From a virus (lineage: Duplodnaviria; Heunggongvirae; Uroviricota; Caudoviricetes): a stretch of 40,870 bases of DNA. Positions 21,176-37,307 of the stretch are shown in pieces. Both the position numbers and the translations under genes were made by a program. How positions within the stretch are numbered: the stretch's first letter is position 1; every line of letters begins with the position of its first letter. Location: IMG/VR virus record IMGVR_UViG_2917413769_000003, positions 1 to 40,870 of that record; one strand, 5' to 3'. A model generated the notes under the pieces. It did no database searches. It was not told where the DNA came from and was given only the letters and a program-made list of their open reading frames with translations.

Positions 21176-21790
21176 TCAGAAACGCCTGAAAGCGTAGGTA
21201 CCAACCCCTTTGCGCCCGAGCTCGCACTCGATTTCGTTGTGCTCCACGCATTCGAAGCCCTGCTCCGCAAACCAGCGCCGCAAGCCCTCGTCCGTGAAGT
21301 ACCAGATATGCTCGTCTTTCTTGTAGTGATGTGATGCCAGAATGTCTTCGGCACCTTTGAAGATCGGGATTGAGAGAAACACGAACTGTCCGGCTTGCTG
21401 AACTGCGCTAACCGGGTCGTCGATGTGCTCCAGGCTATCCCAGAATGTCAGCGCGGGAGCGCCTTCAGCGTAGAGATCAACGAAACATCCGTTATCCTTC
21501 AGCCAGGAGACTCCCGCAGGGTTGACGTCGTAGCCGACCGTTTCCGCTCGCGTGGACACGAATTGTCCGGCCCCGATTCCCACATCGAGTACCAGACCGC
21601 GGTAATGGCGACCCACAAGATCGATACGCGCCTGCGTCAGGGCGTAGCCGGTCTCCGTATCGGCATAAGCCTGATACTTTGCAAAATATTGCGAGTTATA
21701 CGGCCTTGCTGGTGGTACCGGATATCGACCGATCCCCAGCTCAGGCAGAAACACCAGCCCGCGTTCCAGTTCCCGATAAAACGACTTCAT
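21176..21790 (-). CDS. Class I SAM-dependent methyltransferase
   Basis: ORF track 21176..21955; start at Met56 (MKSFYRELERG...) assumed; motif I VLDVGIGAGQF. Confidence 0.6.
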   Translation of the reverse strand: MKSFYRELERGLVFLPELGIGRYPVPPARPYNSQYFAKYQAYADTETGYALTQARIDLVGRHYRGLVLDVGIGAGQFVSTRAETVGYDVNPAGVSWLKDNGCFVDLYAEGAPALTFWDSLEHIDDPVSAVQQAGQFVFLSIPIFKGAEDILASHHYKKDEHIWYFTDEGLRRWFAEQGFECVEHNEIECELGRKGVGTYAFRRF

Positions 21791-22637
21791 GGAGCCAGGC
21801 CTCGAATGTGTTAGTGAAATTGGAGATCCGCTTGTCGCAGTGGTGGTCCCACTCCTCACAGCGGCAGTAGTTGTCAGGGATGGCCCAGCCAACCCGCGAC
21901 AGGTCCATAGCCGGATCGGTAACGATTTCCGGGGCGTTGTGGCCGCCACGCCCACCCGCTACAACGTAGACAGGGGTTTTGTAGGCAATCGCCGCAGGAA
22001 GCGCCCAGCCAACAGGCGTAACCACCACAGCAGCATGCTCAACCAGGCGCATCAGCGATTTGAAGCCGAGCTCACCAGCGTGTAAACGCAGATCAGCGTC
22101 CGGCAGCTCACCGACGGCCCATTCCTCGCCGTCCTGCAAGTCAGCCACGCTGATCACGCAGAAATGCTTGCGCAGGATGTGGGAAGCCTTCAGCAGGTAA
22201 TCGGGGTCCGGATTGCGCGAATCGCTGCGCCATTCAGATCGGACGGTTGCCGGGCGTATGACCGCGATCGGCTTTTCGTGCGTGAACTCCGCAGGGCCGA
22301 AGGAAGGGAGATCCAGCGCTGCTGGCTCCGTGCCGAACTGCTGGCGCATTGCGTCAAATATCGAACCGCGCCGCAGGTGGTCTGGCCCGTAGAAAATACG
22401 CTTTGTCTGGCGCATATCCGGCAGCGGGTGGAATACCGACTGCGTGCGGTGCTCGTTCTTCCGCTGGGTTCTCAGCGTGGTATTGCTGCGCACCGGGCGG
22501 ATGGGTAAATCCTCGTACAGCTCCGGCCAGGGCGTTTTGATAAACGAGCCCGCAGGCAGCTGACGGACGAAAGCACGCTGGTAGATGTTGTCACCCATCC
22601 CCAGCATGCCCTCAATGAAAAGGGGTACATTCAGCAT
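21741..22637 (-). CDS. Glycosyltransferase-like protein (GT-B fold, GT9/heptosyltransferase-like motifs)
   Basis: 298 aa; N-terminal GMGDNIYQRAF resembles GT9 SxGD motif and C-terminal TPVGWALPAAIAYKTPVYVVAGG resembles the GT9 donor-binding region; from memory. Confidence 0.45.
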   Translation of the reverse strand: MLNVPLFIEGMLGMGDNIYQRAFVRQLPAGSFIKTPWPELYEDLPIRPVRSNTTLRTQRKNEHRTQSVFHPLPDMRQTKRIFYGPDHLRRGSIFDAMRQQFGTEPAALDLPSFGPAEFTHEKPIAVIRPATVRSEWRSDSRNPDPDYLLKASHILRKHFCVISVADLQDGEEWAVGELPDADLRLHAGELGFKSLMRLVEHAAVVVTPVGWALPAAIAYKTPVYVVAGGRGGHNAPEIVTDPAMDLSRVGWAIPDNYCRCEEWDHHCDKRISNFTNTFEAWLHEVVLSGTGTRAGVSA

Positions 22638-23182
22638 GTGGCCTCGCGTAGCGCCTCGTCGAGTGACTGACGCCGAAAGCAGTTAAGCGCCGTCTGGCGG
22701 CTGCTGTTGGTGATATTGACTTTGCCGCGAAGCAGCTGCGCGACGCGAGCAAACTCACCGTGCCAGCGCTTCACATTCGCCGCTGTCGGGTTGTCCAGAC
22801 AGGTGTGGTCTCCATGCCAGTGGCTGCCATCTGTGATGGAGCAGTCGAAGCCCAGCAGGATGATGCGCTTTGCACCCAGCCAGTGGGCAAACAGAATCGC
22901 CCTCTGCCCTGAATTGAAGGTGCCAGTGGTATCTGTCGGGAACAGGTTCAGACCATGCCTGGTGTGCGCCCTGCGGTTGCATGTCCAGCGCTCAGGCCCA
23001 TCAGGTAGCGCGGGGATGTTCATATCCCACCAGCGGAGATCGCCCGCGTAGATGTGAGAGCAGCCCGGTACCGCACGCCATGATGAATTAACCGCGATGA
23101 CCGGCAGGCCAGAACGGCATGCTGCGGTACAGTCAGCGACAGTGAGAGAGGGACCAGAAGCGCAGATGATCGCCGCATCCAT
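22631..23182 (-). CDS. Maf/DUF115 (MptE-like) family protein
   Basis: ORF track 22631..23194; motifs IICASGPSL, PVIAVNSS and RIILLGFDCS match DUF115/Maf conserved blocks as recalled. Confidence 0.5.
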   Translation of the reverse strand: MDAAIICASGPSLTVADCTAACRSGLPVIAVNSSWRAVPGCSHIYAGDLRWWDMNIPALPDGPERWTCNRRAHTRHGLNLFPTDTTGTFNSGQRAILFAHWLGAKRIILLGFDCSITDGSHWHGDHTCLDNPTAANVKRWHGEFARVAQLLRGKVNITNSSRQTALNCFRRQSLDEALREATC

Positions 23183-23194
23183 CCCAACCCCCAT

Positions 23195-23508
23195 AATTTG
23201 TTAAAAAACGGCCTGATTTAACATAATGTACGTTATCGGCACCACGCGATCGGCACTCGTCGCTGGATTGCGGCGAAGGGCATGTTTACGCGGATTAAGT
23301 GGCCTGAAACGGACAAAAACGAGTGAATAAATCGTGCATAAAACAGGGTGCAAATTGCATAGCGTTTTTTCGCAGCAAAAGCCCTGTTTTATTAACTTTT
23401 CCCCAGGAAGGAGAAAAGAAAAAGGCCCTCATGCGAGAGCCTCTTAGTGATGAACTGTTTTCAACAGATATCAGGCTAATCGGCTTTTTGGAATTCCACA
23501 ACTATTTT
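23195..23508 (-). promoter_or_regulatory. AT-rich intergenic region, candidate late promoter (PR'-like) / Q-utilisation region
   Basis: 314 bp non-coding, AT-rich, downstream of Q and upstream of late-oriented genes; no convincing -35/-10 pair pinned down. Confidence 0.3.
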
Positions 23509-23850
23509 TTATCTTACCTTGATACCTGAGGCCGTCAGGTGCTTACGGCAGTCCTGAATACCCTCGTTATAACCCGCATCGTAGAAGCTATCGGGCTTTG
23601 CTTTTAACGCAGGAAGAGTGACGCTGGTAGCTTTCCGTTCAGCAGCTACGCCCGCCTGAAAAAGCTCCCACATCAGCTGCACCGCAGGCTCGAAGAACTC
23701 GACATCTTCGCTATACAGCTCGCGCTCCATCCTGAAGCCAAGCTGAGCTTTCATTGACGATCCGATATCACCTTTGATCCGCAAGGAGAGGTCCGGGTAT
23801 TGCTGTTCCATGTAACTTTCAAATCGATTGCGAACACTGATCAGAGCCAT
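23509..23850 (-). CDS. Hypothetical protein downstream of Q
   Basis: 113 aa ORF, no recognisable motifs. Confidence 0.4.
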   Translation of the reverse strand: MALISVRNRFESYMEQQYPDLSLRIKGDIGSSMKAQLGFRMERELYSEDVEFFEPAVQLMWELFQAGVAAERKATSVTLPALKAKPDSFYDAGYNEGIQDCRKHLTASGIKVR

Positions 23851-23881
23851 CTGGTTCCCTTACATGATTGATATCCGTCTA

Positions 23882-24304
23882 TTATGCCGCTGGGCGGTTT
23901 CTGTGCAAAGTCCTAAGCATCTGAGGCTTTGACTGTACCGACTGATCCATTTCGAGAACCACGTCCAGCATCGCCAGGCAACCGTCGATAAATCCCTCTG
24001 CGGCCTGGAGCCTCTTCAGAACGTGGGTATGCGATACGCCGAGCTTCTCGCCCATCGCCCGTACTGGCATGGCCTGAACGTAATGCCACTCAAGCAGTGT
24101 GCACAGATACGGATCTTTTTTCTTCAGGCAGTTCATAGCGGAGCTGATGATCAGACCGTCGTTGTCGCTGCACTTAAGCCGTCCGGCTTGCGTTGTGGGT
24201 AGCAGATTCTTAAATCCTGCAGCTACAGGGGGAAAGTAAATACTACCGCCTTCACTCGCAGCCCAGCCACCCCATCGATCTAAAACCTGTTGAATATTAC
24301 GCAT
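23882..24304 (-). CDS. Late-gene antitermination protein Q (E. coli QuuD-like)
   Basis: N-terminus MRNIQQVLDRWGGWAAS...VAAGFKNL closely resembles QuuD MRDIQMVLERWGAWAA...IAAGFKGL as recalled; located upstream of lysis cassette. Confidence 0.8.
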   Translation of the reverse strand: MRNIQQVLDRWGGWAASEGGSIYFPPVAAGFKNLLPTTQAGRLKCSDNDGLIISSAMNCLKKKDPYLCTLLEWHYVQAMPVRAMGEKLGVSHTHVLKRLQAAEGFIDGCLAMLDVVLEMDQSVQSKPQMLRTLHRNRPAA

Positions 24305-24435
24305 AGCTCTGACCTCTACGTTTTGCTACGAAAAAATTTTCAGGGAACCGCGTCCGCCTCTCCGTGGGCGTGGATAACGCAGTCCCGATTTGCGTATTGC
24401 ACGTCTCAACATGCAAAAAGTTACTTATTCGGAGT

Positions 24436-24623
24436 GGAACCACCTGCCCCCACCTGGAACCACCTTTTTCTAACCTTTCCCCCAATCGACTTATATATAT
24501 ATATGGGGTTTCTAATAGAAAGGTGGTTCCAGTGGTTCCAGTAGTTCCGCACCGCTTGCCGCAAGGGCTGCGAGGTGGAACCACCTTCGCTTTTAGGTGG
24601 TTCCACGTGGTTCCAGCGGTTCC
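24436..24623. repeat. Iteron array (GGTGGTTCC / GGAACCACC, about 9 copies in both orientations) flanking a (TA)n tract; putative replication origin
   Basis: Copies at about 24436, 24456, 24522, 24532, 24574, 24596, 24607, 24615; TATATATATATAT at 24491..24504; directly 3' of the primase-helicase gene. Confidence 0.5.
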
Positions 24624-26779
24624 CAAACCTTGCATTTTTTCCCCTCAATTCGCCGTTGAGCACGCTTATAGCCGCAATTTTGCAAAACATTGCTAATTCG
24701 CATTTCTTCGCGTTTTCCGATGTGGCTGGGATTTAAACCAATCGCATCGCGCAGAACGTCGCTAGCGCGTAAAAATTCGCAATTTCGCGGAATGTCGTTA
24801 GTCATCAGGTCGGGTGTGTCGAGCCATTTCTCGACCGTTTCGAGCCACGCATCCTTAATGGTGTACTGCTCGTGGACACTCGCGCCGAGACGCTCAGCAT
24901 CGCGGAACTGGATGCCGCCGAGGCGCTTAAACGTCTCGCGAGCCTCCGCCCATAGCAAAAGGAGGTCGGTTTTTATCGCTTTCACGTCGACTTTCGACAC
25001 CTCCACGGGAAGCCAGCGACGGTTACCGGTCTTGTCTGCGAGGAATTCGTCCTCGTTGGTGGTGCCGACGAACACCAGGCGACGCGGGAACTGTGTAGCG
25101 AACTCACGATACTTAGGGATCCAGTTCTCATGTGTACGCGTCACGAATGCCTTAATGCTTTCCAGCTCTTTGGTATTGAGGCCGCGCAGCTCGCCAATCT
25201 CCGCCACCAGCCGCCCGCGCATCTTGCGTGCGAGATCGTCATCTTTCTCAGCGAAAGATATCTCGGTGAAGAATGCCGGGTCGGGGCTCAACGCCTCCAC
25301 GCCGGAGGATTTACCGCAGCCCTGAGGCCCGACGAGGATCGGCACCATATCGGCTTTGACGCCAGGCTCCAGCACCCTGCCCGCCAGCGCCGTCCACATG
25401 TACATGGACACCGCACGGGTGTATGCCGTGTCGGCAGTACCGAAGTGCGTGTGGTAGAAAGATTCGATACGCGGCACGCCGTCCCACTCCAGTCCGTTCA
25501 GCCAGGTTGTCGCGGAGTCGAAGGGCTGTTCGTCAGCGGCCAGCAGCACGACGTCGCGAATGAGCTCGCGCCCCACAGGTTTGAAGCCGCGCTTTTCCAT
25601 CGTGATGCGCAGGCGTGCATAGTCGGCATCGGTGAACGCCTGCCACTGGCCGGAGCCCGCAGAGGAAAACATGATTTCGTCGCGGAACTGGTCAAAGCGG
25701 ATATCGATGTCCACGAAGTCAGGGCGTACAACCGCTTTGGCTGCATTGCTGATGGTCGACTCGATGCGCCCCCATTTATCACGTTCGAACGCTGGCAGCG
25801 GTAACGGCTCGGCTACTTCGGTGCTGGTCAGGTCCTCGAAATCGTCGTTGCGGATCCCAATAGCATTAAGGAAATCGCCGTCGTCGCGGTGTGCGCAGCT
25901 GGCGTGCAGGCATTTGAAATGACCCTGCTCAAAGCCCGCGGTACCACCCGGGAAGTAAACCGTGCTCGTCGGGTCGCCGCCAGTACTGTGGCCGTCCTCG
26001 AACGGGCAGCGGATATAGCGCTCGCCGTTCGCACCATCCAGCAGCGTCCAGCCATTGGCGTCCAGATAATCCGCCGTCTCATCAGTAGCACCGGGCGTGA
26101 ACGTCGAACGGTCGCGCATCTTCGTACTACCCGCTTCTGTGGTGACCGACACAGGCAGCTGATCCGCCAGGCGCTGCCACAGCGTTTCGAGTTGGTCAGC
26201 AGTAATGACAGGCGGTTCATCCGGCAGATCACCGTCCCACTCAATCCGGGCGCCGCTGCTGTGTGTACCGCAGGCAACGAACTGCTGCCCATTGGCCAGC
26301 AGCTCAACGATGCCCAAATCGCCCGCCAGGCGGTGAATGCGTTTACGGAAATCGCCGTCGACAGCCAGCAGGTACAGGCATTTATTGCTGTTGGCACGCC
26401 AACGCCGCGGCGGCAGTTCGCCCAGCAACTGCACCAGCGTGTTGCGAATATCGGCCTGGATGTCTTCGTCTTCGCTGTCGCAGTCCAGCGCCAACCAGCC
26501 AAAGCCGGTGCGCACACAGATCCCGTAATCAGGCTCTCTGGACCAGCGGGCAAAGTCATGCTCAGTGACGACATGCTCGGTCCACTGAGCAATACCGGTA
26601 ACCAGGCGGTCACGGTTATAGCGGCTCGGCGTCTTGCCCAGCGCTTTCAGTTTACTGTCGGGGGAAATGGCCGCGCCCGGGTTGCACACGACCGGCAGCA
26701 GCTGGTCAGTACGACCCAGCACCAGATCGAAGTGGAACCATTCGTCAGGCGTCGCCCCCCAGTTCTTATTCTCTGGCAT
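24593..26779 (-). CDS. Bifunctional primase-polymerase (AEP) / SF3 helicase replication protein
   Basis: 728 aa; N-terminal AEP-like motifs (WLALDCD; ACGTHSSG) and C-terminal Walker A GPQGCGKSS; start 3 nt after cro stop. Confidence 0.75.
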   Translation of the reverse strand: MPENKNWGATPDEWFHFDLVLGRTDQLLPVVCNPGAAISPDSKLKALGKTPSRYNRDRLVTGIAQWTEHVVTEHDFARWSREPDYGICVRTGFGWLALDCDSEDEDIQADIRNTLVQLLGELPPRRWRANSNKCLYLLAVDGDFRKRIHRLAGDLGIVELLANGQQFVACGTHSSGARIEWDGDLPDEPPVITADQLETLWQRLADQLPVSVTTEAGSTKMRDRSTFTPGATDETADYLDANGWTLLDGANGERYIRCPFEDGHSTGGDPTSTVYFPGGTAGFEQGHFKCLHASCAHRDDGDFLNAIGIRNDDFEDLTSTEVAEPLPLPAFERDKWGRIESTISNAAKAVVRPDFVDIDIRFDQFRDEIMFSSAGSGQWQAFTDADYARLRITMEKRGFKPVGRELIRDVVLLAADEQPFDSATTWLNGLEWDGVPRIESFYHTHFGTADTAYTRAVSMYMWTALAGRVLEPGVKADMVPILVGPQGCGKSSGVEALSPDPAFFTEISFAEKDDDLARKMRGRLVAEIGELRGLNTKELESIKAFVTRTHENWIPKYREFATQFPRRLVFVGTTNEDEFLADKTGNRRWLPVEVSKVDVKAIKTDLLLLWAEARETFKRLGGIQFRDAERLGASVHEQYTIKDAWLETVEKWLDTPDLMTNDIPRNCEFLRASDVLRDAIGLNPSHIGKREEMRISNVLQNCGYKRAQRRIEGKKCKVWEPLEPRGTT

Positions 26780-26782
26780 GGG

Positions 26783-26983
26783 TTACGCCTTTTGTTTAGC
26801 CGTCTCTTCCTGAAAAAGCTTTTCTATCGCACGTACCGTAGAAAAGCGGGGGTCAGAGTGAACCCCGGTAAGAAGCCGACTAATAGAAGATTGCTTCACT
26901 CCTGCAATTTCGGCAATCTGGCTTTGGGTGTAGCCTGAGTCAATCAGGCTTTTGACCATTTCTTGGGGTGTTAGTCCGGACAT
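26783..26983 (-). CDS. Cro-like HTH (XRE family) regulator
   Basis: 66 aa, HTH (YTQSQIAEIAGVKQSSISRL), divergent from CI-like repressor; RBS GGAGA. Confidence 0.7.
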   Translation of the reverse strand: MSGLTPQEMVKSLIDSGYTQSQIAEIAGVKQSSISRLLTGVHSDPRFSTVRAIEKLFQEETAKQKA

Positions 26984-27124
26984 ATTTAAGTCTCCGCTTT
27001 TGTCTATAGAGCAAATCTATACGAAAACGGATTATTCAGCAATACAGCAATGTCATATCAATCTGGATTAAAATATCCGATAACGCATAATCACCGTCCC
27101 TGTCTTCTACATGGATGAATCCAA
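26984..27124. promoter_or_regulatory. Immunity switch region (divergent cI and cro promoters/operators)
   Basis: 141 bp AT-rich between divergent repressor genes; contains TCTATAGAGCAAATCTATA and CAGCAAT direct repeats. Confidence 0.5.
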
Positions 27125-27799
27125 ATGATTGATACCACCGATATCCTTTCTCAAAACATCAAGTACCTGATGGACAAAGCCAAGATAAGCTCGATAACCG
27201 AGCTAGCTCGTCGGTTACAACTGAATCAGCCAACATTACACAGGCTGGTATCTGGGGAAGTGAAAGACCCGAAATACGCAACGCTGAAGCAGATCGCCGA
27301 TTACTTCCGAGTGTCCCCGATTGACCTGGCGGAAAAGAGCCTTCAGGAGATGAGTAACGGAGGCGACGCCAATACAACAACCTACATATCTCTTCGATTT
27401 AATAAGGTGCCGGTCTTGGGAAATACTCAGCTTGGTGTTGGGGGACTTTGGAGCGACACTCCGTATTCGGTGGGCAGCAGCGATGGCTTCATCTACTGGC
27501 CGACAAAAGATGAAGATGCATATGCTCTGAAATGCGTTGGCGACTCAATGATGCCAAGAATTAAAGAGGGGGAATTCGTAATCGTCGAACCCAACCATGA
27601 CTACGCCCCGGGGGATGAAGTTCTTGTCGTTACGCAGGATGGTGAAGTTATGGTTAAAACTTTCCTGTTCGAGCGCGATGGTCTGTTTCACCTGATGTCC
27701 GTAAACGAAGACCACCCACCAATTAGGGTATCACGCGAAAACATCGAGAAAATCCATTACGTGGCTGGAATTGCTAAATCCGCCCTACGCATGTACTAG
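27125..27799 (+). CDS. CI-like repressor (HTH + S24 LexA-type peptidase domain)
   Basis: 224 aa; N-terminal HTH; C-terminal KCVGDSMMPRI (Ser nucleophile) and VMVKTF (Lys). Confidence 0.8.
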   Translation: MIDTTDILSQNIKYLMDKAKISSITELARRLQLNQPTLHRLVSGEVKDPKYATLKQIADYFRVSPIDLAEKSLQEMSNGGDANTTTYISLRFNKVPVLGNTQLGVGGLWSDTPYSVGSSDGFIYWPTKDEDAYALKCVGDSMMPRIKEGEFVIVEPNHDYAPGDEVLVVTQDGEVMVKTFLFERDGLFHLMSVNEDHPPIRVSRENIEKIHYVAGIAKSALRMY

Positions 27800-27829
27800 C
27801 GCCCACAGCACGACAATCCGTTTCTAACT

Positions 27830-27860
27830 AAACCGCTCAATACATGGGCGGTTTTCTTAT
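27830..27860 (+). terminator. Putative terminator downstream of cI
   Basis: AAACCGC - 11-nt loop - GCGGTTT followed by TCTTAT. Confidence 0.4.
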
Positions 27861-27883
27861 ACGCAAAATAATTCATTTTCGCA

Positions 27884-27912
27884 TTGACACAAAATCCCAT
27901 TACGCATATAAA
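27884..27912 (+). promoter_or_regulatory. Near-consensus sigma70 promoter (TTGACA - 17 nt - TATAAA) reading rightward
   Basis: -35 TTGACA at 27884..27889, 17-nt spacer, -10 TATAAA at 27907..27912. Confidence 0.55.
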
Positions 27913-28234
27913 TACGATATCGCATAAACAATGCGTTTTGTAATCGCTCTTTAACAAACTGAACCGCGTGACAGGCAAGCCGCTGTGCTCCTGGCAACAA
28001 AATAGCACCCGATGGGATCGAGGTAAGCGCCGAGTCCGTATGCGTACGGTAAGCGTAGAGGACCACACCGCGGCGAGCTGATAAGTCACGCAAGTTGAAA
28101 CGCCCCGACGATGGGGCGCTTAGTTCCCTTTGGGGTGCGGTGAATTGCAGTCCACCGAGACAAGCCGAAGCTCAGCATCGGCCACCGCACCACCAAAGTG
28201 AACTGACCAAGTGAAACTAACAGAGAGGTAAAAC

Positions 28235-28701: not shown

Positions 28702-29615
28702 GCTTAGAAACTAGTCTCGAACTTAACAACAAGCTGCTGACGCAGCACAACGCCCTGCTTGAACAGCTGATTACGGCACTGGCTTCAGGCCAGACAATTC
28801 AGCCGCAGACCCTCGTCACCCAGGTACAGGAATATCGCGAGACGGTACCGGACAAATCGGCCACTGATGACGAGCGGCCGGATCTGGAAACGCTGGAATT
28901 CAGCGACGTTATCGCGCTGGCATGTTTCTACCCTTTACCAGTTATGTACAGCTTCGAGATGTTCCAGCGCGCTATCGATTATCGCGATGCTGTTGGCGAC
29001 AAACGTGTGGTGCAGATCGACGCGCTGGACATGGCGCTCCAGGGTGTGAAACGCGCCAACCATCTGAGCAAGCCAGCACTGTTAGATCTGGCTCGCCACG
29101 TTATTCGCTTCTGGGATGATTTGCCGACTATTGAGTCCCGCCGCGACTTTGCCGAACGCCTGCTGGATGCGCCAGCTGCCGGACGCGACGAAGTAAAACC
29201 GAAGAAGGCCAGCGGCAAAGACAAACAGTCTGAGGAACGCACCGGGCCGTTTTACTGCAAAAGCGTAGACGGTAAGGCAGCCAGTGAGCTCCACACTTTA
29301 CGCAAACTGAATGCAATGCTGGAGAAAGGCCACGTTGAGATCAACCGGGTCGAGTACCTCCAACTGCAGGAAGAATTCGCACGTAAAGACGCAGTAAACA
29401 GCGGACAGGGTAAAGACGATGAAACGGATGATACTCCCGACTTTGCGGCACTGCGTAAACAGGCCGAAGGGCTGATTCTGCAGCTGGCGAAAGGTGGTTA
29501 CCGCGCCGAAGCCGTCGCCATTCTGGAAAAACATGGCGCCCAAAAACTTGGCGGTGTTGCTGACGAGGATCTCGCAGACGTGATCGCCCAGGCCGAAAAA
29601 GCGCTGGAGGGTTGA
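28698..29615 (+). CDS. Hypothetical phage early protein
   Basis: ORF track 28650..29615; start at ATG 28698 ([12 protein letters not shown]...) assumed. Confidence 0.5.
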
Positions 29616-29617
29616 GA

Positions 29618-30916
29618 ATGCCAGACGTTCACGCACGACTTTCCCCCTCTGCGGCGCATCGCTGGATGCGCTGCCCCGGTAGCCTGGCGCTGGAAGCCAC
29701 GCAGCCAGATAAAAGCAGCACCTTTGCGGAAGAAGGCACCGCAGCGCATGCACTCGCTGAAAAAGTGCTGCGCAACCGCCAAAGCCACCCCGAGCATTAT
29801 GCCGGGTGCAACGTCGCAATGTTCCTCGGCTCATATCCATTAAGCGAAAACCCGGATGACCAGTCCGGCCCGCAAGTGAACGAGGAAATGGTCGAGGCCG
29901 TTGGCCTTTATACCGACACGCTCTGGACGCTCGCTCAGGGCAACGAGCTGCTGGTCGAGCAGCGTGTCGACTTTTCCCACATCTTCGGCGTGCCTGATTC
30001 ATTCGGTACCGCCGATGGGGTAATCATCGCTGGCAACGAGCTGCAGATCCACGACCTCAAATACGGGAAGGGGGTTCGCGTCGACGCCGAGCAGAACGAA
30101 CAGTTGCAGCTGTACGCCCTGGGCGCGCTGGAGCAGTTCAGCATGCTGTATGACTTCGAGACGGTGCGCCTGTTCATCCACCAGCCGAGGCTTAACCACG
30201 TTTCAGAGTGGGCCCTGACGGTGGAAGAGCTCCAGGCGTTCGGCGAACGGGCGCAGGAAGCGGCGGCCAACGTGATCGTGATGTTCAACATTGCCGATTG
30301 CGAAGGCGTCGAAACGCTGCCGCTGGAAAACTTCACTCCAGGCGAAAAACAGTGTCGGTTCTGCAAGGCTAGTGCCATCTGCACCGCCCGGGAACAACTG
30401 CACATCAGTACCATCGCGGGGGATTTCGACGACATAACGCAGTCCGTTGGCGATCTGCTGGCTGACTCAATCGCGCGGGTACCGCTACTAACCGTTGAAC
30501 AGCTGGCAGAGGTATACAGCCAGGCGGACTTTATCGAATCCTGGCTAAAGGCCGTGCGCGACCGGGTGAACAGTGAGCTGAACGCCGGGCATCAGGTTCC
30601 GGGCTTTAAGCTGGTCACCGGCAAGCTGGGTAACCGCGCCTGGAGCAACGAAGCAGAAGCAGAAGAGCTGCTGAAATCCTTCAGGCTGAAACAGGAACAG
30701 ATGTACAGCATGAAAGTAATCAGCCCGACGCAGGCCGAGAAGTTGCTTAAGAAAGAAAGTCCGCGCCGCTGGACAAAAGCCGAAGCCCTGATCACCCGCG
30801 CTGACGGTAAACCCACCGTCGCCCCTGAATCTGACCCGCGCCCTGCGCTCAATATCAACCCTGTTAACGATTTCGACGACGTGTCCGACGACGCGCTCGC
30901 CGCAGACCTCATCTGA
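29618..30916 (+). CDS. PD-(D/E)XK family nuclease (DUF2800, Cas4/RecB-like) with C-terminal Cys cluster
   Basis: ORF track starts at TTG 29612; ATG 29618 with GGAGGG RBS; N-terminal [14 protein letters not shown] and [10 protein letters not shown] cluster. Confidence 0.65.
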
Positions 30917-31717: not shown

Positions 31718-32550
31718 AGAAAATTATCTTTGCTGCCGTCGTCGCCCTGTCGGCGCTGGCTCTGTCTGGTTGCGAACGCGCCACCGTTCCCGCGGGTTAC
31801 GTCGGCGTTAAAGTGGACCTCTACGGTGACGAAAAAGGCGTTCAGCAGTCCGAAGTCGGCGTCGGTAAATATTGGCTGACGTGGAACGAAGAGATTTACC
31901 AGTTCCCGACGTTCAACCAGCTGCACAACTATGATCAGCCATTCACCTTCCAGACCGCCGACTCAATGGATGTGAAAGCCCGGATCGGCGTCGAATATTA
32001 TGTCGACCCCGAAAAGGTGACCAAAATATTCCAGACCTACCGCAAAGGGGTGGACGAAATAACCGAGGTCAACCTGCGCCAAAATATCAGTGATGCGCTG
32101 ATCAACCACTCCGGGAAGATGAATATCAACTCGCTGGCAGCCGGAGGCAAAACGCAACTGCTCGAACAGGTTACGCAGGATCTGAAGTCCAAACTTGACC
32201 CCATCGGCATCAGAATCGTGAAGCTGTCATGGGTAAGCGACCTGGACTACCCGCAGAAAGTGAAAGAATCCATCAACGCGAAAATCGAGGCCACACAGCG
32301 CGCGCTGCTGCGCGAGAACGAGATCGCCCAGTCTAAAGCCGAAGCCCAGAAGGCAATCGAGCAGGCACGCGGCGAAGCAGAATCCACCATGTTGCGCGCC
32401 AAAGCTGAATCTGACGCTATTGCCCTTCGCGGTGAAGCGTTACGCAGTAACCCCGAAGTGCTGCAACTGGAAGCGATTAATAAATGGAATGGCACATTGC
32501 CGCAGTATCTGACCAGCGGCGCAGCAACTCCCTTTATCCCCCTGAAGTAA
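31714..32550 (+). CDS. SPFH/band-7 domain lipoprotein (prohibitin/flotillin-like)
   Basis: 278 aa; lipoprotein signal [20 protein letters not shown]; band-7-like core and C-terminal coiled coil ([22 protein letters not shown]...). Confidence 0.65.
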
Positions 32551-32624
32551 TCACCTCACCCGGCCACGCGCCGGGTGTTTTGCAAAGAGCATCCCTTTTC
32601 GCAAAGCACCCGCGAGGACTATCT

Positions 32625-34691
32625 ATGCCTGAAAAAATTCTCTGGGGCGACCTGGAAACCTTCTGCAGCATTCCTATCAACAACGGCACGCACGCTTATG
32701 CGGAAAGTGTCGAGGTGATGCTGTTCGCCTGGGCAATCGGCGACGAACCGGTTAGCGTCTGGGATCTGACTGCTGGCGAACCTATCCCCGGCAGGCTGCG
32801 GAAGGCCATCGCCGACCCTGACACTATTCTATTTTTCCACAATTCACACTTCGACCGCACGGTCCTGCGCCATGCAATGCCGGAACTGGCACCCGATGTC
32901 ACCCGCTGGCGCGACACGATGGTGCAGGCGCTGGCGCACAGTCTCCCCGGTGCACTGGGGGCGCTCTGCGAGGTGCTGGGCGTTCCGCAGGACAAAGCCA
33001 AGGATAAAGAAGGTAAAGCGCTGATCCAGCTATTCTGCAAGCCACGACCGAAAAACAGCAAACTTCGCCGGGCCACCAGCAAAACCCACCCGGAAGAGTG
33101 GCGGCGCTTTGTTGCCTATGCCGGGCTGGATATTGAGGCCATGCGCGAAGTGCATAAGCGCCTGCCGAAGTGGAATTATCAGGGTGCAGAGCTGGCGCTC
33201 TGGCATCGCGATCAGCGCATTAACGACCGCGGCGTCTGCATGGATGTGCAGCTCGCGCAGGCGGCGATCGAGGCGGTAGACCAGGAGCAAAAGCGCCTGG
33301 CGAAACGCACGCAGGTGATGACCGACGGCGAAGTGCAGGCGGCTACGCAGCGCGATGCGCTGATTAAGCACATTGTTGAATCCTACGGCGTGGATCTGCC
33401 GGACATGCAGCGCAGCACGCTGGAGCGCCGCATCGCGGATCCTAATTTACCGTCTGCGGTGAAAGAGCTGCTACACATCAGGCTCCAGGCCAGCACCACC
33501 AGCACCAGTAAGTACAAATCACTGATGAAGGGTGTAAGCCGTGACGGTCGCCTGCGTGGCACGCTTCAGTTCTGTGGCGCATCGCGTACCGGGCGCTGGG
33601 CCGGGCGGTTATTCCAGCCCCAAAACCTGCCCCGCCCTTCCCTTGAGCAGGAACGTATCGACGAAGGCATAGAGGCGCTGAAATCAGGATGCGCCGATCT
33701 GCTGTTCGACAACATCATGGAGTTGACCAGCTCGGCTTTGCGCGGCTGCATTATGGCCCCCGAGGGCAAAAAGCTGGTGGTTAGCGACCTGTCGAACATC
33801 GAAGGACGAAAACTGGCCTGGCTGGCTGGGGAACAGTGGAAGCTGGACGCGTTCCGGGAGTTCGACGAGGGCACCGGGCCGGACCTATACAAACTGGCCT
33901 ACGCCCGCGCCTTCAACATCTCGCCGGATGATGTCGACAAATACCAGCGTCAGATCGGCAAGGTGATGGAGCTGGGTCTCGGCTTCGGCGGTGGTGTTGC
34001 GGCGTTCCTGACCTTCGCGCTGGTTTACGGCCTCGACCTTGACGAACTGGCGAACGCTGCGCTGCCGAATATCCCCCGCGATCTTATCCGCGAGGCGAAA
34101 AGCTGGTACGACGAATCGGTTAAACGCAAGTCGACCTACGGCCTGTCAGAGCGCGTATTCATCGCCTGCGATTCGCTTAAACGCCTCTGGCGCAGAGCCC
34201 ACCCGGCAACCTGCGATTTCTGGTACGAGCTGGAGCGCACCGTCCGCACCGCCATCGCAACCCCGAAAAAGACGCTGTACTGCGGCTATCTGAAAATTCG
34301 CCGCGATGGTGCATGGTTGCGCATACAGCTGCCGTCCGGGCGCGCGCTGTGCTACCCGTCCCCGTCCATTGAGAAAGGAAACATCACCTATCAGGGCGTA
34401 AATTCCTACTCGCGCAAATGGCAGCGGCTCAAAACCTACGGCGGGAAACTGGTGGAAAACGTCACCCAGGCGGCAGCCCGTGACGTTCTGGCCGGAAACA
34501 TGCCGCTGATCGAGGATGCCGGTTACAGCATTGTGCTGACGGTACACGATGAAGTGATCACCGAAGCGCCGGACACCGACGATTTCAACGAAACGGCGCT
34601 TTCCGCGCTGCTCTCCACTAACCCCGAATGGGCGCCCGATATCCCGCTGAACGCTGGCGGCTTCGAAGCGATTCATTACCGTAAGGATTGA
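32625..34691 (+). CDS. Family A DNA polymerase (phage-type, with 3'-5' exonuclease region)
   Basis: ORF track 32484..34691; start at ATG 32625 with GAGGA RBS; length and position after DUF2800/DUF2815 genes. Confidence 0.75.
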
Positions 34692-36114: not shown

Positions 36115-36392
36115 CCTACGAGCGTGAAAGCACTATCGAAAAGCACCTCGTCGCCGAAGTGAAAAAGGCTGGCGGGCTGGCTTATAAATTCGTGTCGCCT
36201 GGCCGCCGCTCGGTACCAGATCGCATTGTGCTGTTACCCGGCGGCCGTCTCGTCTTTGTCGAATGCAAAGCACCTGGCAAACCACCACGCGCCGACCAGC
36301 TGCGCGAGCACGAACGGCTGCGCGCACTGGGCTTTTGCGTGGTGGTGCTGGATAGCAAAGACCTTTCGCAAGTGCTATCTCTAGCGCCCTAA
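36111..36392 (+). CDS. VRR-NUC domain nuclease
   Basis: 93 aa; PD-(D/E)XK core PDRIVLL...FVECKAPG; start overlaps previous stop. Confidence 0.7.
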   Translation: MTYERESTIEKHLVAEVKKAGGLAYKFVSPGRRSVPDRIVLLPGGRLVFVECKAPGKPPRADQLREHERLRALGFCVVVLDSKDLSQVLSLAP

Positions 36393-37307
36393 CTGAGGGT
36401 TGCGGAAGTTGTCAGCAATTCGCATCGCATCAGCTCTCCCGCCGGGCAGCATCCCCGCCTTCGTCAGGATGTATTTAGGGAACTTGGTGGGCAAATACTC
36501 ATGACGGAACCAACGACGAAATTCTGGCAACGCTTCGTTGGGATAAGCGTTAATCATCTGAGGATTCGAAGTAGATTGATTAAAGTCATCCGGATAGTGA
36601 TGCGCACATTGAACGCGATCACCGAACTGACGTGAGAGGCCGTTTGACGTCCAGTGACGCCCCCAGCATGAACCGACGCTGATATCAGGCACGGTATACA
36701 TATTCACCGCAAGACCAGCGGTAATCAGGTCAACCATTAAACCCGCAATTTCGTTAAAAATGATAAAGTGGCCGTCGGGTACCGTGCCGGTACTTTGGAT
36801 AATGGAAACCCGCTGATGATAAGGCCCCCAAGGGTCTTCTGGCTGGTATCGCAACGCGCCATAAATATAATCCCGAAGCCCGACTCGGGCTAATTCGCGA
36901 TAGTATTGTTGCGCGGTTGAATTTGATGCTGCTTGCGATTCAAAAGCATAAAACTCGAGCAGAGCCATACACACAATATCAGGGAATGCGTAATGTACAG
37001 AGCCTGCACGCATAACCGAGATAAATAGCACAGGGTCTGTATAACCGGCTTGCTGAAGATATGTGCTAATAAACTCCATTCGCCCACGAGTAAAAACCCC
37101 GCTCTGGAAGCACTGAGCGTATTCGTTTGCGATGTCTGCAATGTTTGTGCGGTTGACGCCGCAGATTCTTGCGAGTCCGTTCTGAGTAAGGTACGGAATA
37201 CCGTTCTCCAAAACACCCATTTCAATATCGTTGAAAACACCTTCCTGCCTAACTCCAAGATCTAATACAGCAGGGGGTGTGGGCTGAGGCTGATTCTGTG
37301 TAGTCAT
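36381..37307 (-). CDS. Hypothetical protein, opposite-strand low-GC insert (moron-like)
   Basis: 308 aa on the minus strand inside a plus-strand operon; visibly lower GC than flanks; 3' end overlaps VRR-NUC 3' end by 12 nt. Confidence 0.5.
   Translation of the reverse strand: MTTQNQPQPTPPAVLDLGVRQEGVFNDIEMGVLENGIPYLTQNGLARICGVNRTNIADIANEYAQCFQSGVFTRGRMEFISTYLQQAGYTDPVLFISVMRAGSVHYAFPDIVCMALLEFYAFESQAASNSTAQQYYRELARVGLRDYIYGALRYQPEDPWGPYHQRVSIIQSTGTVPDGHFIIFNEIAGLMVDLITAGLAVNMYTVPDISVGSCWGRHWTSNGLSRQFGDRVQCAHHYPDDFNQSTSNPQMINAYPNEALPEFRRWFRHEYLPTKFPKYILTKAGMLPGGRADAMRIADNFRNPQLGR

What the first reader, a model, noticed from the sequence alone, without database searches (positions are those of the whole stretch)
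24436..24623. Iteron array around a (TA)n tract next to the primase-helicase gene: putative origin
About nine copies of GGTGGTTCC/GGAACCACC in both orientations flank TATATATATATAT in the gap between the primase-helicase 3' end and Q, and the last copies encode the C-terminal residues of the primase (…PRGTT). Iterons beside an AT-rich unwinding element are the hallmark of replication origins bound by their initiator, as in the P4 alpha/ori arrangement.
Basis: partly seen in the sequence, partly recalled or inferred. Interest (0 to 1): 0.55.

Follow-up and report, generated by a model that had tools for sequence, protein, structure and literature searches.

The report
Phage replication origin beside its initiator-helicase
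The repeats are almost certainly the replication origin of a temperate phage, read by the tail end of the neighbouring primase-helicase; this is a known design (staphylococcal island Rep/ori), here in a complete enterobacterial phage, and relatives show that two amino acids track which repeat word is used.

Summary
Ten 9-10 bp sites, seven with the exact core GTGGTTCC and three degenerate, lie at 24436-24623. They sit in both orientations around (TA)6T at 24492-24504, between the primase-helicase stop codon and Q, and occur nowhere else in the 40.8 kb window.

The interpretation (origin bound by its initiator) is strongly supported by comparison, though not by experiment. About 100 related loci keep the same layout. 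They use at least 11 different iteron words, and all copies in a locus switch together while the AT-rich core stays constant.

The word is predicted almost perfectly (ARI 0.97) by two residues in the primase-helicase C-terminal motif G-K-x-x-[KR]-x-[WFY]. It is not predicted by cI, cro, the rest of the protein or the downstream flank (ARI 0.24 or less).

That C-terminus models as a winged helix. Its best structural match is SaPI1 Rep1 (7PDS), and the helicase core is homologous to Rep1 (E 8e-33).

The closest known system is therefore the SaPI/PICI Pri-Rep-ori replicon, not P4 alpha, because the primase here is Prim-Pol rather than Toprim. It is a new member of a known kind, with a noteworthy specificity code.

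The parts
24593..26779 (-). Initiator gene: 728-aa fused primase-polymerase (AEP Prim-Pol, res 49-184) and VapE-like SF3 helicase (res 427-626, Walker A GCGKS 487-491) with a C-terminal DNA-binding domain
   Evidence: Pfam VapE-like E 2.6e-60 and Prim-Pol E 5e-9. Residues 384-656 align to SaPI1 Rep1 (7PDS) at E 7.8e-33. Sources name close homologues 'replication protein'.
24614..24859 (-). C-terminal winged-helix-like domain (about res 641-722). Predicted recognition helix KREEMRISNVLQNCGY (res 689-704, 24668-24715), followed by a beta-hairpin wing.
24623..24643 (-). Specificity motif G713-K-K715-C716-K-V-W719 in the wing hairpin
   Evidence: Mutual information with iteron class is concentrated here. 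Residue 715 plus the aromatic residue predict the iteron class with ARI 0.97.
24577..24623 (.). Gene-end iteron cluster: three direct sites (24615-23 degenerate, 24605-14, 24595-604) overlapping the last 9 codons and the stop, plus one inverted site (24577-85). Sites 24595-605 and 24576-86 form a perfect 11-bp palindrome with an 8-nt gap.
   Evidence: The same '2-3 direct + 1 inverted' cluster sits at the stop codon in nearly all relatives.
24521..24548 (.). Gene-proximal origin arm: three tandem iterons at 9-bp spacing, with the CACC end pointing towards the AT tract
   Evidence: The position is conserved in relatives.
24466..24520 (.). AT-rich core and putative DNA-unwinding element. It includes (TA)6T at 24492-24504 and the conserved word GAAAGGTT (as AACCTTTC, 24472-79). 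GC content is 0.35.
   Evidence: The core is almost invariant across all iteron classes in the clade with 89% or higher identity. There is a GC dip here. GAAAGGTT lies 20-22 nt from the TA tract in 70 of 97 loci.
24436..24465 (.). Gene-distal origin arm: three tandem iterons at 10-bp spacing in inverted orientation (the middle one, GCCCCCACCT, is degenerate), also pointing towards the AT tract
23882..24304 (-). Antiterminator Q gene, the downstream neighbour. It is context only and not part of the origin module.
   Evidence: Pfam Phage_antitermQ E 3.8e-41. The type of downstream flank does not track the iteron class.

Best explanation
The region 24436-24623 is the lytic replication origin of a temperate myovirus-like prophage. 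The neighbouring 728-aa protein acts as primase, replicative SF3 helicase and origin-binding initiator in one chain.

Its C-terminal winged-helix domain binds the 9-10 bp iterons (consensus cTGGAACCACCt). The conserved CACCT half of the word is probably read by conserved parts of the domain. The variable half is probably read by the beta-hairpin wing, G-K-x-x-[KR]-x-[WFY].

Two triplets of sites point towards each other across a 55-bp AT-rich core containing (TA)6T. By analogy with SaPI Rep, one hexamer would assemble on each arm, melt the AT core without a separate loader, encircle single strands and unwind outwards. The Prim-Pol domain would lay down primers for the phage's own DNA polymerase (32484-34691).

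A third cluster, three direct sites plus one inverted site at the stop codon, is a conserved auxiliary binding site of unknown role.

What is shown: the repeats, their statistics, the conserved architecture, the protein-DNA covariation, the homology to Rep1 and the winged-helix-like fold.

What is inferred: binding, melting, double-hexamer loading and origin activity.
For: 1. All seven exact cores lie in 179 bp, against 1.13 expected for the whole window.

2. The same layout is found immediately 3' of the homologous gene in about 95 loci: 2-3 direct sites plus 1 inverted site at the stop codon, a tandem triplet, a (TA)n core, then an inverted triplet. These loci come from Enterobacterales, Orbaceae and Burkholderiales, with protein identity from 98% down to 49%, and from the cultured phages vB_EcoM-606R2 and YeP4.

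3. Proteins that are 89% or more identical use at least nine different words. Every copy on both arms switches together, while the core AACCCCATATATATATATAAGTCG...GGAAAGGTTAGAAA is kept.

4. The word tracks a 22-aa C-terminal segment. Same-class pairs are 92.5% identical there and different-class pairs 66.1%, against 95.2% versus 94.3% for the N-terminal 560 aa. Two residues give ARI 0.97. cI, cro, the primase N-terminus, the helicase and the downstream flank give 0.24 or less.

5. The code is regular: W pairs with ..CACC and F/Y with ..AACC in four matched pairs (TAGAC, GTAAC, GTCCC, GTA[G/C]C). After G-K, Q pairs with TAGAC, L with GTTAC, V/S with GTAAC, M with GTA[C/G]C, and K with GGAAC or GTCCC. 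The same pairs recur in backgrounds only 72-77% identical (L021, L096, L091).

6. The helicase core is homologous to SaPI1 Rep1 (E 7.8e-33). Rep1's winged-helix CTD binds iterons that lie immediately 3' of rep and flank an AT-rich region in opposite orientation (PMC9371898).

8. No promoter, terminator or Rfam family explains the region.
Against: There is no experimental evidence for binding, melting or origin firing in this phage group.

The wing-coding DNA lies only 0-60 nt from the first iterons, so physical linkage contributes to the covariation. However, the equally close downstream flank shows none.

The roles of the stop-codon cluster and of the conserved GAAAGGTT word are not explained.
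Confidence: 0.82

Rival explanations
1. The C-terminal domain of the primase-helicase does bind the iterons, but the array is mainly a control element rather than the place where replication starts. Possible roles are autoregulation, copy control by handcuffing, a crr-like enhancer, or a roadblock that delays read-through from the early operon into Q.
For: The array lies inside the early-right transcription unit between the initiator gene and Q. The stop-codon cluster, with its perfect palindrome, has no obvious role in melting. P4 has an analogous second iteron region, crr (established knowledge, not tested here).
Against: The AT-rich (TA)n core flanked by convergent site triplets is the arrangement shown experimentally to be the ori in SaPIs and in an E. 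coli PICI (PMC9371898; PMC6092414). No second iteron cluster that could be the true ori exists in the window. In most relatives the downstream gene is not Q, so a Q-timing role cannot be general.
Confidence: 0.08
2. The repeats are operators for an unrelated transcription factor such as CI, Cro, Q or a host regulator, controlling expression of Q or the late genes.
For: Arrays of short inverted and direct repeats in an intergenic region upstream of a regulatory gene can be operators. Q lies 130 bp downstream.
Against: The iteron class is independent of the cI and cro types (ARI 0.08-0.12) and of the downstream flank (ARI about 0). The cI-cro intergenic region contains no related word. No promoter-like site is found in the array. 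The only protein segment that covaries is the initiator's own C-terminus.
Confidence: 0.04
3. The inverted repeats act through nucleic-acid structure, as an RNA hairpin, attenuator or terminator between the primase gene and Q, or as a DNA cruciform. The joint change of the arms would then be compensatory base-pair covariation.
For: The strand folds far better than shuffles (-50.2 kcal/mol, z -7.0). The arms change together across relatives.
Against: Tandem direct copies at 9-10 bp spacing are not needed for a stem. There is no T-run and no terminator-like site, and no Rfam match. Pairing cannot explain why the word tracks two amino acids of the adjacent protein. Degenerate copies keep the protein-type consensus (GGTGG...) rather than maintaining pairing with their partners.
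Confidence: 0.03
4. The array is a partition centromere or a packaging (pac/cos) site.
For: Centromeres and pac sites can be short-repeat arrays.
Against: The pfam scan of nine ORFs around the array (21741-28089) found no partition-type family; the rest of the window was not scanned for ParA/ParB. The terminase genes are 5 kb away. The array is always glued to the 3' end of the helicase gene, whatever lies downstream.
Confidence: 0.02

Closest known systems
SaPI / PICI Pri-Rep-ori replicon (SaPI1 Rep1, SaPI5 PriRep5; E. coli EcCICFT073 pri-rep-ori)
   Same: The helicase core is homologous to SaPI1 Rep1 (7PDS, E 7.8e-33). The ori lies immediately 3' of the initiator-helicase ORF. Two sets of short iterons in opposite orientation flank an AT-rich region. 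A C-terminal winged-helix domain is the iteron reader, and no separate loader is needed. A primase is fused to Rep, as in SaPI5 (PMC9371898; PMC6092414).
   Different: The host element is a complete 40-kb temperate phage with head, tail, lysis and its own DNA polymerase, not a satellite. [quoted passage not shown] Iterons here are 9-10 bp, against 5-6 bp in SaPIs. There is an extra conserved site cluster that overlaps the stop codon. E. coli PICI Pri-Reps are described as distant P4-alpha relatives, whereas this protein is Prim-Pol + VapE.
Satellite phage P4 alpha protein with ori and crr
   Same: One polypeptide combines primase, SF3-type helicase and a C-terminal winged-helix origin-binding domain that reads octamer iterons present in both orientations. 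An iteron region lies close to the gene. This is established knowledge of P4 and was not re-tested here.
   Different: The primase domain here is an archaeo-eukaryotic Prim-Pol, not the Toprim/DnaG type. There is no sequence match to any P4 alpha structure, and the P4 origin-binding domain was not recovered by either fold search. The iteron word is different. The window holds no second distant cis element equivalent to crr.
pRN1 ORF904-type Prim-Pol / SF3 helicase / winged-helix replication proteins of archaeal plasmids
   Same: The domain order is the same: Prim-Pol, then SF3 helicase, then a C-terminal winged helix (established knowledge; Pfam Prim-Pol hit).
   Different: No sequence hit to solved ORF904 fragments. 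No iteron/AT/iteron origin adjacent to the gene is known to me for pRN1. The host domain of life differs.
Lambda O / ori-lambda and iteron-plasmid Rep origins
   Same: Iterons sit next to an AT-rich unwinding region and are bound by a replicon-specific initiator. The origin lies in the early-right operon of a temperate phage. Specificity types differ between related phages.
   Different: Lambda's iterons lie inside the O gene, are all direct, and O needs P to recruit host DnaB. Here the initiator is itself the helicase and primase, and the sites converge on the AT core.

Membership tests
SaPI/PICI-type Rep-ori replicon | Initiator is a Rep helicase with an SF3 / VapE-like ATPase core homologous to SaPI1 Rep1 | tested here: met
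   phmmer against PDB: 7pds_A E 7.8e-33 over res 384-656. Pfam VapE-like E 2.6e-60.
SaPI/PICI-type Rep-ori replicon | ori located immediately 3' of the rep ORF | tested here: met
   The array starts inside the last 9 codons and ends 157 bp after the stop. The same holds in about 95 relatives.
SaPI/PICI-type Rep-ori replicon | At least two iterons on each side of a central AT-rich region, pointing in opposite directions | tested here: met
   Three sites on each side of (TA)6T, convergent.
SaPI/PICI-type Rep-ori replicon | C-terminal winged-helix domain that specifically recognises the iterons | tested here: inconclusive
SaPI/PICI-type Rep-ori replicon | The pri-rep-ori segment drives autonomous replication; ATP-independent binding and melting | not testable with these tools
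   Needs cloning and biochemistry.
PICI (the element, not the replicon) | Phage satellite of about 10-15 kb lacking a full set of virion genes | tested here: not met
   The window encodes terminase, portal, major head, sheath, tape measure and baseplate proteins. Relatives are cultured phages.
P4 alpha / ori-crr | Toprim (DnaG-type) primase domain | tested here: not met
   Pfam finds Prim-Pol (PF09250) and no Toprim domain.
P4 alpha / ori-crr | Two separated cis regions (ori and crr) carrying the same iteron | tested here: not met
   No exact copy, and only scattered 1-mismatch 9-mers (10 of the 17 hits, against 7.7 expected by chance), lie outside 24436-24623 in 40.8 kb.
P4 alpha / ori-crr | C-terminal winged-helix origin-binding domain related to the P4 OBD | tested here: inconclusive
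Lambda O/P-type origin | Iterons inside the initiator gene, and a separate helicase-loader (P) recruiting host DnaB | tested here: not met
   The operon is cro, primase-helicase, ori, Q, with no O/P homologues. Only the three gene-end sites lie in coding sequence, and relatives show this is incidental.

The most novel reading that the evidence does not exclude
The initiator's wing hairpin carries a simple recognition code that could in principle be re-programmed: the residue after G-K and the terminal aromatic residue specify the variable half and the C/A position of the iteron. Diversifying selection would have generated a dozen or more mutually exclusive replicon specificities among otherwise nearly identical phages, perhaps to avoid cross-initiation or hijacking by co-resident prophages and satellites. 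It would also mean that the 'PICI-exclusive' iteron/AT/iteron origin is really a widespread phage replicon, from which satellites could have taken it.
Probability: 0.45. Interest if true: 0.6.

Novelty: new member of a known kind. Interest (0 to 1): 0.45.

Why it matters
It assigns a precise origin and a self-loading initiator-primase-helicase to a widespread group of enterobacterial prophages. The module is present in 105 of 5,426 complete E. coli genomes, and also in Salmonella, Enterobacter, Citrobacter, Klebsiella, Yersinia and the APSE phages of aphid symbionts. Databases annotate the gene only as 'VapE domain-containing' or 'replication protein'.

It shows that the origin design regarded as a hallmark of PICI satellites also operates in complete phages.

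The natural series of near-identical initiators with different iteron words is a ready-made data set for working out how a winged-helix wing reads DNA. It could also guide the design of orthogonal replicons. All of this can be tested directly with wing-swap mutants.

Tried and rejected
- DNA search of the 400-bp region against the phage collection found nothing. Only the longer query and the E. coli genomes gave relatives.
- The Stx-phage 'Eru' replication modules (PMC8044961) were checked as a possible prior description. They are unrelated, being an SF2 helicase plus Toprim, with no iterons mentioned.
- Ubeda 2007 and 2012, the primary SaPI ori papers, are not held in the library. SaPI facts are therefore cited from PMC9371898.
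- A literature search for Streptococcus thermophilus phage origins next to primase genes returned nothing relevant.
- A DnaA-box-like TTATCCACG at 24371-81 was dismissed as chance because relatives do not keep it. GCGGTTCCC at 24343-51 was dismissed as an iteron because relatives keep it regardless of their iteron class.
- The first version of the ORF-end script read through stop codons in 19 loci and was corrected.
- The promoter/terminator scan and the Rfam search gave nothing in the array.

Full report
**1. Observation**

Reading 24100-25000 and running the repeat finder confirms the array. In + strand coordinates the sites are:
- AGCGGTTCC 24615-23 (degenerate), ACGTGGTTCC 24605-14 and AGGTGGTTCC 24595-604.
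- An inverted GGAACCACC at 24577-85.
- A 9-bp tandem triplet: AGTAGTTCC 24540-48 (degenerate), AGTGGTTCC 24531-39 and AGGTGGTTCC 24521-30.
- TATATATATATAT at 24492-24504.
- A 10-bp tandem triplet in the other orientation: GGAACCACCT 24456-65, GCCCCCACCT 24446-55 (degenerate) and GGAACCACCT 24436-45.

The exact core GTGGTTCC occurs seven times, all inside 179 bp. The expectation is 1.13 for the whole 40.8-kb window, and no shuffle reached seven (one-mismatch 9-mers).

The array lies between a 728-aa gene at 24593-26779 (-) and Q at 23882-24304 (-). Pfam gives Prim-Pol plus VapE-like for the former and Phage_antitermQ (E 3.8e-41) for the latter. The three gene-end sites encode ...EPLEPRGTT*. The finding's coordinates and description are correct, except that there are ten site positions rather than nine.

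**2. Context**

The window is a complete temperate phage.
- A cI-like repressor lies at 27125-27799 (+) and a cro-like HTH at 26783-26983 (-). The early-right operon then runs cro, primase-helicase, array, Q.
- Terminase, portal, major head, sheath, tape measure and baseplate genes are all present.
- The phage also encodes its own DNA polymerase (32484-34691), an exonuclease and a BstA homologue.

Related DNA is found in 105 of 5,426 complete E. coli genomes, in the induced E. coli phages vB_EcoM-606R2 and relatives, in Yersinia phages YeP4-6 and in Hamiltonella APSE phages. The closest proteins (97%) come from Salmonella and are named 'replication protein' or 'VapE domain-containing'.

**3. 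Comparative anatomy**

I fetched 100 loci that encode relatives of the protein: 20 from species genomes and 80 from IMG/VR. Two annotated phages were added.

In nearly all of them the region just 3' of the gene has the same plan:
- two or three direct sites at or overlapping the stop codon;
- one inverted site;
- a spacer of about 35 bp;
- a tandem triplet at 9-bp spacing;
- a (TA)n-containing AT-rich core;
- an inverted triplet.

This holds down to 49-57% protein identity, in Gilliamella, Orbaceae and Burkholderiales.

The repeated word differs between loci. Examples are GGAACCACC, GTAACCACC, GTTACCACC, GTATCCACC, GTAGCCACC, TAGACCACC, GTACCAACC, GTCCCAACC, TAGACAACC, GTAACAACC, GTCCCCACC, GTCACCAC, CCGTCACC and AGTGTAGAA.

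An alignment of twelve origins from proteins that are 89% or more identical shows the key pattern. Every site on both arms and at the gene end switches together. The core AACCCCATATATATATATAAGTCG..GGG.AAAGGTTAGAAA is essentially invariant.

**4. Which protein reads the word?**

- Mutual information between alignment column and iteron class is negligible along the protein. It rises sharply only in residues 685-728.
- Same-class and different-class pairs are equally similar in the N-terminal 560 aa (95.2% versus 94.3%). They differ strongly in a 22-aa C-terminal segment (92.5% versus 66.1%).
- The segment contains the motif G-K-x-x-[KR]-x-[WFY], which is G713-KKCKV-W719 in the window.
- The mapping is regular:
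  - KC/KS-KVW with GGAAC-CACC
  - LM-KVW with GTTAC-CACC
  - VL-KVW with GTA[A/T]C-CACC
  - VQ-RVW with GTAAC-CACC
  - MT-KAW with GTAGC-CACC
  - QI-RVW with TAGAC-CACC
  - KQ-RIW with GTCCC-CACC
  - MT/VT-RIF with GTACC-AACC
  - KM-RIF with GTCCC-AACC
  - QQ-R[VI]F with TAGAC-AACC
  - SQ-RVY with GTAAC-AACC
- So W goes with C and F/Y with A at one base, in four matched pairs. The residue after G-K goes with the variable 5' half of the word.
- The residue after G-K plus the aromatic residue predict the class with adjusted Rand index 0.97. Clusters of cI, cro, primase N-terminus, helicase and the downstream flank give 0.24 or less.
- The downstream flank is as close to the array as the wing codons are, yet it shows no association. 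Linkage alone therefore does not explain the result.
- The same motif-word pairs recur in backgrounds only 72-77% identical, where the spacers have diverged (L021, L096, L091).
- The cI-cro operator region has no related word.

**5. The protein**

Residues 384-656 align with SaPI1 Rep1 (PDB 7PDS) at E 7.8e-33. This is the only solved relative.

According to PMC9371898:
- SaPI Reps are hexameric, self-loading SF3 or MCM-like initiator-helicases.
- Their C-terminal winged-helix domain recognises iterons located immediately downstream of rep.
- Half of the iterons lie on each side of an AT-rich region and point in opposite directions.
- Binding and melting do not need ATP, and binding curves suggest one hexamer per side.
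- SaPI5 has the primase fused to Rep.

An AF2 model of residues 600-728 (29-sequence alignment, mean pLDDT 73.8, 84-89 over the last 50 ordered residues) gives helix 672-680, helix 689-701 and a beta-hairpin at 704-711 / 714-721. This places the covarying motif in the second strand of the wing.

**6. Mechanism proposed**

The array is the phage origin. The initiator's winged-helix domains dock on the convergent triplets. Two hexamers assemble head to head across the 55-bp AT core (GC 0.35), melt (TA)6T and unwind outwards. The Prim-Pol domain primes for the phage polymerase.

The binding, melting and loading steps are inferred from Rep1, not shown here.

The C-terminal tail EPLEPRGTT is incidental. 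Iteron words that contain TAA or TAG in frame end the ORF at the first site. GGAACCACC has no stop, so the ORF reads through three sites.

**7. Rivals**

- An unrelated regulator is disfavoured by the independence from cI, cro and the downstream flank, and by the absence of a promoter.
- A nucleic-acid structure is compatible with the strong fold (z -7.0). It does not explain tandem direct copies or the protein covariation, and there is no terminator or Rfam match.
- A control-only role (handcuffing, roadblock before Q) cannot be excluded for the stop-codon cluster. No other candidate ori carrying the word exists in the window.

**8. Comparison and novelty**

It fails P4 membership because the primase is Prim-Pol rather than Toprim, there is no crr-like second site, and the P4 OBD was not recovered.

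It meets the sequence-testable criteria of the SaPI/PICI Pri-Rep-ori replicon. Fillol-Salom et al. (PMC6092414) showed that an E. coli PICI pri-rep-ori segment replicates. [quoted passage not shown] Here it sits in a complete phage, so that statement needs qualifying.

I found no prior description of this module or of the wing code in the searchable library. The library is incomplete, however.

Verdict: a real feature, correctly interpreted. It is a new member of a known kind, and the specificity code is worth an experiment.

Noticed in passing
window 24472-24479 (AACCTTTC on +; GAAAGGTT in gene direction): A non-iteron word, GAAAGGTT, lies 20-22 nt from the start of the TA tract in 70 of 97 related loci. 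These include Burkholderiales relatives whose primase is only 49-64% identical (background 0.013 per 60 nt). It could be a priming or helicase-entry signal, but its role is unexplained.
   Followed up: partly
window 32484-34691 (+), 29612-30916 (+): The prophage encodes its own DNA polymerase (phrog_17, E 4e-122) and an exonuclease (phrog_69, E 1e-133) in the leftward operon. Together with the primase-helicase, it therefore carries most of a replisome.
   Followed up: no
window 36381-37307 (-): A homologue of the BstA abortive-infection protein (phrog_6287, E 6e-105). This is a prophage-borne defence gene that is reported to come with a self-immunity DNA element. I did not look for that element.
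   Followed up: no
window 24596-24622 (-), and loci L027, L059, L087: The length of the initiator's C-terminal tail is set by the iteron word. Words with an in-frame TAA or TAG stop the ORF at the first site. GGAACCACC lets it read through three sites, which is why homologues are 717-730 aa long.
   Followed up: yes
window 24549-24576: The spacer between the inverted gene-end site and the triplet is GC-rich and partly palindromic (GCACCGCTTGCCGCAAGGGCTGCGAG) in the GGAACCACC class. It is AT-rich (TTTTAACTAATTGAATTTAAA) in the other classes shown (the TAGAC classes carry variant AT-rich spacers). The significance is unknown.
   Followed up: no
window 24371-24381: A DnaA-box-like word (TTATCCACG on the - strand) lies 55 bp beyond the array. 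Relatives with the same flank do not conserve it, so it is probably chance.
   Followed up: partly
loci L027, L030, L014: Some origins mix two words that differ at one base (GTAACCACC and GTATCCACC) under a single wing motif (GKVLKVW or GKVCKVW). This suggests that this position is not discriminated by that wing.
   Followed up: partly
related loci (71 with full flanks), upstream of the primase gene: Among primases that are 89% or more identical there are about 25 cI and about 21 cro sequence clusters. These shuffle independently of the origin specificity, so immunity and replicon specificity are separate exchangeable modules.
   Followed up: partly
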